Counted from the stretch's first letter, positions 24,335 through 24,655 are shown. The stretch is DNA of 64,000 bases from Escherichia coli (GCF_045037415.1 NZ_CP173440.1); one strand, 5' to 3'. Numbers and translations are program-made. The notes: a model not told the origin generated them from the sequence alone.

Positions 24335-24655
24335 ATCATCAAGAACCACTTTTCTCCATTTTACCCCTCTGCAATTTTGTATTTCGTTCTATCCACCAGC
24401 ACAGGCCCACGGTCCCGGTAAACCCGGAACCGGGACCTGTGCCGTGAGAACCACTTTAGACGGGTCACATCACTTCAAAGGGAAGCTGTCGCCGTCTCAG
24501 TCACCCGGTCTCAAAATTTTTACAGGCATTCAGCCTGCAAAAACTTTGAGCTGCGGCTTCCTTCTCCGCCCTTTTTCGTTCTGTTTTCCCCGTCTGCGTT
24601 TGTCTCACGGCACAGGTCAGGCCGCACACAATCCTAAATTGCTGGAGAATACGCT

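What the first reader, a model, noticed from the sequence alone, without database searches (positions are those of the whole stretch)
24400..24618. Nested inverted repeats in the 320-bp gap upstream of the 263-aa gene
A local hairpin (24400-24448) and a distal inverted copy of GACCTGTGCCGTGAG (24434-24448 versus 24604-24618) bracket about 160 bp. The gap is long for an operon-internal spacer and could hold a regulatory structure, a small RNA, or a recombination site.
Basis: seen in the sequence. Interest (0 to 1): 0.3.

Follow-up and report, generated by a model that had tools for sequence, protein, structure and literature searches.

The report
Single-stranded-DNA promoter hairpin on a plasmid
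The nested inverted repeats are the stems of a long DNA hairpin from a recently described family of plasmid promoters that work only while the DNA is single-stranded; this is a divergent, lone copy on a Klebsiella resistance megaplasmid, in an unexpected orientation relative to the transfer genes.

Summary
A perfect 16-nt inverted repeat (24434-24449 / 24603-24618), a local hairpin and an unnoticed apical hairpin lie in the 321-nt gap before the 263-aa gene, far beyond chance. Together they form a ~185-nt imperfect hairpin homologous to the 'class 2' single-stranded-DNA promoters (ssp2/Frpo3 of F; klcA/ardA promoters of pESBL). A leave-one-out profile gives E=1.5e-17. Across 19 copies, 23 of 39 base pairs covary. 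The template-strand 3' arm carries TTG...TAnnnT boxes, with the -10 box in a conserved internal loop, and these boxes are absent from the duplex form. The downstream protein is a homologue of the F leading-region protein YffB. Within the Klebsiella IncHI1B/IncFIB megaplasmid lineage the core is far more conserved than neighbouring sequence. The most likely function is a promoter (possibly also a replication roadblock) that is active only when the - strand is single-stranded. Main caveat: the element is solitary, lies about 80 kb from the presumed oriT, sits next to a replication origin, and faces opposite to the relaxase gene. Whether its template strand is the transferred strand is unresolved. 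It is a new member of a known kind, of moderate interest.

The parts
24335..24655 (.). 321-nt gap between the 117-aa and 263-aa genes that holds the element
   Evidence: single-strand folding z = -6.8 (+) and -9.1 (-)
24434..24618 (-). Core hairpin of about 185 nt: a class-2-type single-stranded-DNA promoter, read on the template (-) strand
   Evidence: leave-one-out nhmmer E=1.5e-17, the only hit in the window; alignment A1; covariation; within-lineage divergence 1-5% against 17-19% for the rest of the gap
24434..24449 (.).
   Evidence: I2, 16 nt, 100% complementary; helix 1 of the consensus structure, 96% of cells paired, 5 of 10 pairs with compensatory changes
24603..24618 (.). Right arm of the basal stem; template side, contains the predicted transcription start near 24607
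   Evidence: register taken from the family alignment; the start site is inferred, not measured
24453..24458 (-). Candidate -10 box TAAAGT on the 3' arm of the folded - strand, lying in the conserved internal loop
   Evidence: TAnnnT in 16 of 19 family copies; unpaired in the consensus structure; the corresponding duplex-form hexamer is TGCGTT (24595-24600), with no A at position 2
24473..24478 (-). Candidate -35 box TTGAAG on the 3' arm, in a paired segment
   Evidence: CCCTTG block with TTG in 17 of 19 copies, against only 3 of 19 duplex forms (CTG in 12); the spacer here is 14 nt against 15 in the family
24510..24550 (.). Apical A/T-rich hairpin CTCAAAATTTTTACAGGC-ATTCA-GCCTGCAAAAACTTTGAG
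   Evidence: I3; the loop CTGAATG/CATTCAG is conserved in the short-form family members
24399..24442 (.). Local (side) hairpin; the inner stem 24411-24437 is compatible with the long hairpin, while the outer stem competes with it for 24434-24442
   Evidence: I1, I14; lineage variants change 10 bases in 16 nt yet keep stability at -21.0 versus -20.4 kcal/mol
24644..24649 (+). Shine-Dalgarno-like GGAGAA, 6 nt before the ATG
   Evidence: read from the sequence
24656..25447 (+). 263-aa gene driven by the element; homologue of the F leading-region protein encoded just upstream of ssp2 (YffB position)
   Evidence: BLASTP E=7e-14 over the full length against F L003 5566-6342; relatives in more than 5000 mostly conjugative plasmids; the closest outside homologue is also preceded by a class 2 element

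Best explanation
The nested repeats are the stems of a ~185-nt imperfect hairpin formed by the - strand, which is the template strand of the 263-aa gene. The hairpin is a divergent member of the class 2 family of single-stranded-DNA promoters (ssp2/Frpo3 of plasmid F; klcA and ardA promoters of pESBL). When this strand is single-stranded it folds. Its 3' arm then presents a -35 box (TTGAAG) inside a paired segment and a -10 box (TAAAGT) inside a conserved internal loop of about 10 x 10 nt, so the -10 region is already melted. Host sigma-70 RNA polymerase would start near 24607 and transcribe rightwards, through a ~49-nt leader with a GGAGAA ribosome-binding site, into the gene. Once the complementary strand is made, the non-template strand reads TTTTTC and TGCGTT instead, and the promoter is off. 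By analogy with ssp2 of F, the stem-loop may also stall complementary-strand synthesis. Shown here: homology, conserved and covarying structure, boxes that exist only in the hairpin form, purifying selection in this plasmid lineage, and a leading-region-type downstream gene. Inferred: that transcription occurs, the start site, and above all the occasion. Entry by conjugation is the most likely occasion, but that requires the - strand to be the transferred strand, which I could not establish.
For: Homology: the window copy matches the gaps upstream of antirestriction genes in Erwinia (E=1e-20) and Enterobacter (E=2e-13) leading regions, and those match both arms of the pESBL and F class 2 hairpins. 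A profile of 18 copies from other plasmids finds 24433-24619 at E=1.5e-17, the only hit in 64 kb. Family behaviour: 26 further copies at E<=1e-9 in nine leading-region loci, all on the gene-sense strand and just upstream of a gene. Structure: 39 consensus pairs with 94.6% of cells paired (82% in shuffles, 32-39% when partners are slid), 23 pairs with compensatory changes (10.5 in shuffles), 0 of 500 shuffles as good. Strand: G.T 27 versus A.C 5 on the template strand; the template strand folds better in all 8 copies tested and here (-70.1 versus -59.5 kcal/mol). Boxes: TTG in 17 of 19 and TAnnnT in 16 of 19 hairpin forms; only 3 of 19 duplex forms read TTG (CTG in 12) and none has A at -10 position 2. 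No duplex sigma-70 promoter on the + strand in the gap. Selection: core divergence 4.9% and 1.1%, against 17-19% for the rest of the gap and 29-34% at codon position 3 of the gene (p=5e-4 and 2e-5). Module: the closest outside homologue of the gene is preceded by a class 2 copy with the same TAAAGT. Published function of homologues: early induction and 5' RACE start sites (PMC12672017); promoter and UvrD-resolved roadblock (bioRxiv 10.64898/2026.01.09.698686).
Against: The relaxase operon (mobI, mobH, traD) lies about 80 kb away and on the opposite strand. The same opposite orientation holds in six other family members. In F, pESBL, Serratia and IncC plasmids the element or the gene is co-oriented with the relaxase. 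If the usual rule applies, the - strand is not the transferred strand. The copy is solitary: no other class 2 or class 1 element was found in about 260 kb of the plasmid. The three experimentally studied copies alone detect it only at E=0.012. Its -35 to -10 spacer is 14 nt (15 in the family, 17 optimal). Its folding energy in a 300-nt window (-66.8 kcal/mol) misses the -75 screening threshold used by Wen et al. Read-through from the upstream operon could express the gene without any promoter here. There are no transcript data for this plasmid.
Confidence: 0.6

Rival explanations
1. The hairpin and promoter chemistry are the same, but the trigger is vegetative replication rather than conjugation. 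The element lies about 1-2 kb from an origin-like region (DnaA box, iterons, then RepB in typical family members). For a fork leaving that origin leftwards, the - strand is the lagging-strand template. It would fold once per replication round and give an RNA made rightwards, which could prime lagging-strand synthesis (a classical 'ssi' signal) and/or give a replication-coupled pulse of the 263-aa protein.
For: The element and gene face opposite to the relaxase across the plasmid lineage, so the - strand may never enter a recipient as single strand. Adjacency to the origin-like region: DnaA box near 26168, three TTAACnGTCGTAyG repeats at 26286-26408, and RepB at record position 1 immediately after in pMTY12137. 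The geometry fits: the RNA is made in the direction of lagging-strand synthesis for a leftward fork (inference). Frpo-type elements were first described as primer-RNA sites (Masai and Arai 1997, as cited). There is strong purifying selection despite the 'wrong' orientation.
Against: All 26 other copies examined lie in leading regions upstream of genes, not at origins. The same element-plus-gene module occurs in a classic leading region far from any origin. A whole gene separates the element from the iterons. Origin function and fork direction are untested.
Confidence: 0.15
2. An RNA-level element. In read-through mRNA from the upstream operon the repeat forms a long hairpin acting as a processing, stability or attenuation signal; or the - strand is transcribed into a structured antisense RNA.
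For: Any inverted repeat also folds in RNA, and the + strand folds with z = -6.8. No terminator separates the upstream gene from the gap. The G.T excess would equally fit an antisense RNA with the - strand sequence.
Against: No Rfam family matches at E<=1. On the sense RNA the 27 G.T pairs become C.A mismatches. There is no U-tract terminator. The invariant TTG and TA...T positions, and the unpaired -10 loop, have no rationale in an RNA hairpin. The homologues are experimentally single-stranded-DNA promoters.
Confidence: 0.08
3. An inert passenger. The hairpin was carried along when the YffB-like gene was acquired from an F- or I-type leading region, and it no longer does anything in this backbone.
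For: The copy is solitary, faces opposite to the relaxase, is far from the presumed oriT, has lower G+C (52%) and weaker folding than F/pESBL copies, and has a shorter spacer.
Against: The core is 4 to 15 times less diverged than the adjacent gap sequence, and less diverged than any codon position of the flanking gene, in two lineage comparisons. Both boxes are unchanged across variants. Despite about 30-35% divergence from its nearest relatives, it keeps every invariant block of the family in recognisable form.
Confidence: 0.08
4. A duplex-DNA site: a palindromic protein-binding or recombination site, or a cruciform.
For: It has perfect 16-nt arms. It also lies close to an IS4321 copy and an inversion breakpoint.
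Against: The arms are 153 nt apart with an imperfect stem all the way, unlike operator or res/dif-type sites. The strand asymmetry in wobble pairs and in the boxes is meaningless for duplex DNA. The IS4321 and the breakpoint are about 2 kb away and absent in typical family members. The family is dispersed upstream of genes.
Confidence: 0.04

Closest known systems
Class 2 single-stranded-DNA promoters: ssp2 / 'Frpo3' upstream of yfgB (ardB/klcA) in plasmid F, and the klcA and ardA promoters of IncI1 pESBL (Wen et al. 2025, PMC12672017; Fraikin et al. 2026 preprint; Frpo3 in bioRxiv 10.1101/2025.04.03.647016)
   Same: Homologous sequence blocks on both arms (GCCGTG, AAGCCGCAGC, GAmCGGGTGA, CCCTTG, CTAnnnT, CACGGC). 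The same long imperfect hairpin on the template strand. The same register of -35 and -10, with the -10 box in an internal loop. The same position directly upstream of, and co-oriented with, a leading-region-type gene.
   Different: It is very divergent: the three studied copies alone give only E=0.012. The centre is short (185 versus about 238 nt) and capped by an A/T-rich apical hairpin. G+C is 52% against the 68.6% reported for Frpo3, and the fold is weaker. The spacer is 14 nt. It has an extra conserved side hairpin. It is a single copy per plasmid, on a MOBH IncHI1B/IncFIB megaplasmid rather than a MOBF or MOBP plasmid. It lies about 80 kb from the presumed oriT, next to a replication origin, and faces opposite to the relaxase gene.
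Class 1 single-stranded-DNA promoters: Frpo1/Frpo2 of F, ssi1-3 of ColIb-P9 (Masai and Arai 1997; Bates et al. 1999; Couturier et al. 2023, PMC9849209)
   Same: The same principle: a template-strand hairpin that rebuilds -35 and -10 boxes. The A/T-rich apical hairpin here (CAAAATTTTTAC) resembles the apex of Frpo1/2 (CAAAATTTTTTAC).
   Different: There is no detectable sequence homology beyond that short apex: pairwise blastn gave E>1, and a class 1 profile finds nothing in the plasmid.
Single-strand initiation (ssi) signals near plasmid replication origins (primosome-assembly or primase sites)
   Same: A stem-loop on one strand near an origin-like region, oriented so that an RNA could prime lagging-strand synthesis (inference).
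   Different: It has no known sequence relation to those sites. It is separated from the iterons by a whole gene, and all its relatives lie in leading regions rather than at origins.

Membership tests
Class 2 ssDNA promoters (ssp2/Frpo3 family) | Sequence homology to class 2 copies | tested here: met
   Leave-one-out profile of 18 copies: E=1.5e-17, full length, sole hit in the window. Pairwise E=1e-20 to Erwinia and 2e-13 to Enterobacter copies, which match both arms of the pESBL/F class 2 copies at E about 1e-8 to 1e-9. Direct detection by the three experimentally studied copies alone is marginal (E=0.012), so membership rests on intermediates.
Class 2 ssDNA promoters (ssp2/Frpo3 family) | Long imperfect stem-loop on the template strand, conserved in evolution | tested here: met
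   z = -9.1 on the - strand. Consensus of 39 pairs with 94.6% of cells paired, 23 pairs with compensatory changes, 0 of 500 shuffles as good, slid controls 32-39% paired. G.T 27 versus A.C 5 on the template strand.
Class 2 ssDNA promoters (ssp2/Frpo3 family) | -35 and -10 boxes rebuilt in the stem, absent from the duplex form | tested here: met
   Hairpin form TTGAAG / TAAAGT against duplex form TTTTTC / TGCGTT. Family: TTG in 17 of 19 and TAnnnT in 16 of 19 hairpin forms; no duplex form has A at -10 position 2. Deviation: the spacer is 14 nt here against 15 in the family.
Class 2 ssDNA promoters (ssp2/Frpo3 family) | Directly upstream of, and co-oriented with, a gene of the leading-region repertoire | tested here: met
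   The hairpin ends 37 nt before the ATG. The protein is homologous to the F leading-region 258-aa protein (E=7e-14). The same module occurs in an Enterobacter leading region.
Class 2 ssDNA promoters (ssp2/Frpo3 family) | Template strand is the transferred strand; location in the leading region near oriT | tested here: inconclusive
   The presumed oriT (upstream of mobI) is about 80 kb away in this record, with mobH 47-60 kb past record position 1 in typical members. The element faces opposite to mobI-mobH-traD. By the usual rule that would be the wrong strand, but nic site and polarity are not established for MobI/MOBH systems (PMC5587640). Ancestrally the whole gene run points towards oriT, as leading regions do.
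Class 2 ssDNA promoters (ssp2/Frpo3 family) | Folding energy below -75 kcal/mol in a 300-nt window (screening threshold of Wen et al., a method criterion rather than a biological one) | tested here: not met
   -66.8 kcal/mol for 24361-24660 on the - strand; -70.1 for the 326-nt gap. F and pESBL copies give -109 to -112 over gaps of about 416-464 nt.
Class 2 ssDNA promoters (ssp2/Frpo3 family) | Transcription start from the single-stranded form; early transient induction in transconjugants | not testable with these tools
   Needs 5' RACE or RNA-seq of early transconjugants, or in vitro transcription. The predicted start is about 24607.
Class 2 ssDNA promoters (ssp2/Frpo3 family) | Roadblock to complementary-strand synthesis, relieved by UvrD (shown for F ssp2) | not testable with these tools
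   Known only for F. The conserved G+C-rich side hairpin at the 3' side of the folded strand is compatible with it but proves nothing.
Class 1 ssDNA promoters (Frpo1/2, ssi1-3) | Sequence homology to Frpo/ssi | tested here: not met
   Pairwise blastn E>1; a class 1 profile gives no hit in the window or in about 260 kb of the plasmid.
Known RNA families (Rfam 15) | Covariance-model match | tested here: not met
   0 matches at E<=1 in 22000-27000 on both strands.
Intrinsic terminator / conventional duplex promoter | G+C stem followed by a T-run; TTGACA-17-TATAAT in duplex form | tested here: not met
   Neither is found on the + strand in the gap.

The most novel reading that the evidence does not exclude
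The hairpin promoter sits on the strand that is NOT transferred. It is kept under selection because that strand becomes single-stranded in another setting: as the lagging-strand template of the adjacent replication origin, or as the retained strand in the donor during transfer. That would make it a replication-coupled or donor-side single-stranded-DNA promoter or primer site. This use has not been described for the family, which so far is known only from entering leading regions.
Probability: 0.2. Interest if true: 0.7.

Novelty: new member of a known kind. Interest (0 to 1): 0.4.

Why it matters
Single-stranded-DNA promoters let plasmids express anti-defence and establishment genes within minutes of entry. 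Class 2 was described only in 2025-2026, in IncF and IncI plasmids, and its authors state that conservation across plasmid families is unknown.

This copy extends the family to the IncHI1B/IncFIB(Mar) MOBH megaplasmids, which carry NDM and CTX-M genes in Klebsiella. About 490 of the 72,556 plasmid records searched hold it. It also shows that BLAST from the known sequences would miss such members, whereas a profile built through intermediates finds them.

Its orientation gives a clean test. Either it reveals the still-unknown transfer polarity of these plasmids (the mobI side entering first), or it shows that such promoters are used on a strand exposed by something other than conjugative entry.

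It also singles out the YffB-like 263-aa protein as a candidate early establishment factor.

Tried and rejected
- **Rfam:** a scan of 22-27 kb at E<=1 found nothing.
- **Pfam and PHROGs:** no informative families for the 263-aa, 117-aa and 1126-aa proteins or their neighbours; the 263-aa protein matched two PHROGs of unknown function.
- **Class 1 (Frpo/ssi) homology:** rejected.
- **Other copies in the same plasmid:** none found in about 260 kb; 210-292 kb of the record was not fetched.
- **Other strong hairpins in the window:** the only comparable peaks are at 60.7-63.6 kb, around the CRISPR array and the group II intron gene. Weaker peaks (about -52 to -58 kcal/mol) were not convincing.
- **Duplex promoter or terminator in the gap:** none.
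- **Transfer polarity of MobI/MOBH systems:** several papers and searches gave no statement; for IncA/C the nic site is explicitly undetermined.
- **Supplementary figure with the class 2 -35/-10/+1 assignments of Wen et al.:** not held, so my box assignment is my own, taken from the alignment.
- **A/T tract of the apical hairpin as an UP element:** considered and not claimed, because it lies about 40 nt upstream of the -35 box, too far in a linear reading.
- **DUF4942 gene on the opposite strand as evidence for the other polarity:** set aside, because that block is an IS4321-bounded inversion specific to this plasmid.

Full report
**1. The observation**

The gap between a 117-aa ORF (23981-24334) and a 263-aa ORF (24656-25447), both on the + strand, is 321 nt.

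- It holds a perfect 16-nt inverted repeat, 24434-24449 / 24603-24618, with 153 nt between the arms.
- It holds a local hairpin with arms 24399-24419 / 24422-24442 (76% complementary) and a perfect inner 9-bp stem.

Perfect 16-nt inverted repeats within 200 nt did not occur in 30 simulated windows. The only others in the real window are CRISPR repeats. As single-stranded DNA the gap folds far better than shuffles, with z = -6.8 on the + strand and z = -9.1 on the - strand. It is the third most stable 300-nt stretch in the window.

**2. Where the window comes from**

The window is 100% identical over 24 kb to plasmid NZ_CP117741.1 of Klebsiella pneumoniae, apart from an insertion sequence. That record is 341 kb, IncFIB/IncHI1B, MOBH, MPF_F and NDM-5-bearing. 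The 326-nt gap occurs in 494 plasmid records, almost all from Klebsiella and 464 of them predicted conjugative.

**3. What the element resembles**

One distant database hit placed the core of the element in the gap just upstream of an antirestriction gene, in the classic leading region of an Erwinia plasmid. The same held in every other homologue fetched: the related sequence lies directly upstream of, and on the same strand as, a leading-region gene (antirestriction, DNA methylase, DUF1281, DUF932, ParB or a hypothetical gene). Those homologues came from Enterobacter, Serratia, Yersinia pestis pMT1, Pantoea, F and pESBL.

Pairwise comparisons form a chain:
- The window matches Erwinia at E=1e-20 and Enterobacter at E=2e-13.
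- Those two match both arms of the gaps upstream of klcA and ardA in pESBL, and upstream of the klcA/ardB homologue in F, at E of about 1e-8 to 1e-9.

The pESBL and F gaps are the 'class 2' single-stranded-DNA promoters of Wen et al. 2025. They are induced early in transconjugants and have 5' RACE start sites (PMC12672017). The F copy is also named Frpo3 and ssp2. It has been shown to drive yfgB and to stall complementary-strand synthesis until UvrD resolves it.

A profile search found 26 further copies at E<=1e-9 in nine leading-region loci, all on the gene-sense strand, and exactly one copy in the window. A profile built without the window copy still finds 24433-24619 over its full length at E=1.5e-17. 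The three experimentally studied copies alone give only E=0.012. Membership is therefore established through intermediates, and a BLAST search from the known sequences would miss this copy.

**4. Structure**

Nineteen copies were aligned in template-strand orientation (A1). They share invariant blocks: GCCGTG, AAGCCGCAGC, GAmCGGGTGA, CCCTTG, CTAnnnT and CACGGC.

| Measure (39 consensus pairs) | Observed | Shuffles | Partners slid |
|---|---|---|---|
| Cells paired | 94.6% | 82% | 32-39% |
| Pairs with changes on both sides | 23 | 10.5 | 3-11 |

No shuffle out of 500 reached any observed measure.

An inverted repeat alone does not say which strand folds, but three results do:
- G.T wobbles outnumber A.C mismatches 27 to 5 on the template strand.
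- The template strand folds better in all eight copies tested.
- Here the energies are -70.1 versus -59.5 kcal/mol.

**5. Promoter boxes**

On the 3' arm of the folded template strand the family reads CCC-TTGnnn-(15 nt)-TAnnnT.

- TTG lies in a paired segment. The three bases after it vary but covary with their partners.
- The TAnnnT box lies in a conserved internal loop of about 10 x 10 nt, and the basal stem follows it.
- In the hairpin form TTG occurs in 17 of 19 copies and TAnnnT in 16 of 19.
- In the duplex form only 3 of 19 copies read TTG (CTG in 12), and no copy has A at the second position of the -10 box.

The window copy reads TTGAAG (24478-24473) and TAAAGT (24458-24453) in the hairpin form, against TTTTTC and TGCGTT in the duplex form. 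Its spacer is 14 nt. No duplex sigma-70 promoter is detected on the + strand in the gap.

From this register I infer a start near 24607, a 49-nt leader, a GGAGAA ribosome-binding site at 24644-24649 and the ATG at 24656. The assignment of boxes and start site is my inference, because the published figure with the mapped sites was not available.

**6. The downstream gene**

The 263-aa protein has no Pfam family. It is a full-length homologue (E=7e-14) of the 258-aa protein encoded just upstream of ssp2 in F, at the yffB position. Relatives occur in more than 5000 mostly conjugative plasmids. Its closest relative outside the lineage (33.5% identity) lies in an Enterobacter MOBP leading region. 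It is directly preceded by a class 2 copy (E=5e-33) with the same TAAAGT box. The pairing of a class 2 element with this gene family is therefore a recurring module.

**7. Is it still functional in this lineage?**

I compared the window with two divergent lineage members.

| Region | Divergence |
|---|---|
| Core 24434-24618 | 4.9% and 1.1% |
| Rest of the gap | 17-19% |
| 263-aa gene, overall | 17-18% |
| 263-aa gene, third codon positions | 29-34% |

Fisher tests of core against flanks give p=5e-4 and 2e-5, and both boxes are unchanged. This argues against an inert relic, although a recombination patch is not formally excluded.

The local hairpin is also conserved as a structure. Ten substitutions within 16 nt remodel its apex while stability is kept at -21.0 versus -20.4 kcal/mol. 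Its inner stem can coexist with the long hairpin. Its outer stem competes with the basal stem for 24434-24442. Its role is unknown. It lies where complementary-strand synthesis would first meet the structure, which is compatible with a roadblock, but that is speculation.

**8. The caveat: orientation and place**

The relaxase module (mobI, a hypothetical gene, mobH, traD) lies at 176.7-183.0 kb of the record, on the strand opposite to the element. The presumed oriT is upstream of mobI. The same relation holds in six other family members. In F, pESBL, Serratia and IncC plasmids the element or the gene is co-oriented with the relaxase. If the usual rule applies (the relaxase operon enters last, and the transferred strand is the template of genes co-oriented with it), the - strand is not the transferred strand here.

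Three points keep this open:
- The nic site and polarity of MobI/MOBH systems are not established in the literature I could read (and others).
- The 26.7-53.4 kb block of the window is an inversion between two IS4321 copies. In the typical arrangement the whole run of genes is on one strand and points towards the oriT region, as leading regions do. That run comprises the methylase, the 263-aa gene, RepB, DUF4942 and further on umuDC. It follows the same relative order as pESBL, with DUF4942 nearer oriT and the YffB-like gene and methylase farther away.
- The copy is under strong constraint.

The element also lies 1-2 kb from an origin-like region. That region has a DnaA box and three TTAACnGTCGTAyG repeats, with RepB immediately after in typical members. 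The - strand would be the lagging-strand template of a fork leaving that origin leftwards. This gives a rival trigger for the same device.

**9. Verdict**

The finding is a real, strongly non-random structure. It is a divergent, solitary member of the class 2 single-stranded-DNA promoter family, placed before a YffB-like gene on a MOBH megaplasmid. I give about 0.95 to family membership and 0.6 to the full mechanism (a single-strand-specific promoter for the 263-aa gene, most likely at conjugative entry). It is a new member of a known kind. Interest is moderate, raised mainly by the orientation puzzle, which is directly testable.

Noticed in passing
window 60646-61350 (array); 54929-60397 (genes): A CRISPR array of at least 10 repeats (GTATTCCCCCCGCATGCGGGGGTTATCGG, 29 nt, 61-nt period) lies next to a cluster annotated as Cas6/CasE-like protein plus a 635-aa helicase and three hypothetical genes. 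From memory this looks like the plasmid-borne type IV-A3 CRISPR-Cas of Klebsiella megaplasmids; I did not test that.
   Followed up: partly
window ~26700-53400: The block between two oppositely oriented IS4321 copies (record 103644-104648 and 130186-131190) is inverted relative to typical family members such as pMTY12137. There RepB and the following genes are co-oriented with the 263-aa gene.
   Followed up: partly
window 25700-26500: An AT-rich non-coding stretch with a DnaA box (TTATCCACA near 26168), three TTAACnGTCGTAyG repeats (26286, 26351, 26395) and many GATC sites. In typical family members RepB starts just after it, so it is probably a replication origin.
   Followed up: partly
window 24449-24450: The window has one extra A (GAGAACC) compared with the four lineage relatives aligned, which all read GAGACC, and with the otherwise identical record NZ_CP117741.1. 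The best database hits are 99.7% identical over 325 instead of 326 nt. It lengthens the distance from the -10 box to the basal stem by 1 nt. It may be a private variant or a sequencing error.
   Followed up: no
window 20591-23971: A 1126-aa ORF directly after an orphan N6/N4 DNA methyltransferase (19278-20522) has no Pfam or PHROG match at all. It is conserved with the methylase and the 117-aa ORF upstream of the element in the lineage.
   Followed up: no
window 25460-25481: A G+C-rich hairpin GGGGCTGCAGCAGTGCAGCCCC lies 13 nt after the stop of the 263-aa gene, followed by only a weak T-run. It looks like a terminator, but the scan did not call it.
   Followed up: no
window 62101-63588; also record NZ_CP117741.1 4165-5652: A group II intron reverse transcriptase/maturase gene (ltrA) with an identical protein accession occurs twice in the plasmid. 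The strongly folding stretches at 61.1-63.6 kb around it probably reflect the intron RNA.
   Followed up: no
window 7360-10079: A cytosine methyltransferase and a convergent type II restriction endonuclease gene form a complete restriction-modification pair inside the run of small plasmid genes.
   Followed up: no
L010 3278-3437 (pESBL) and L003 2663-2822 (F): The gap upstream of the DUF1281/methylase operon in pESBL, presumably the published 'class 3' promoter, matches the class 2 profile at E=9e-11. A further F site matches at 1e-9. Classes 2 and 3 may therefore be distantly related rather than unrelated.
   Followed up: no
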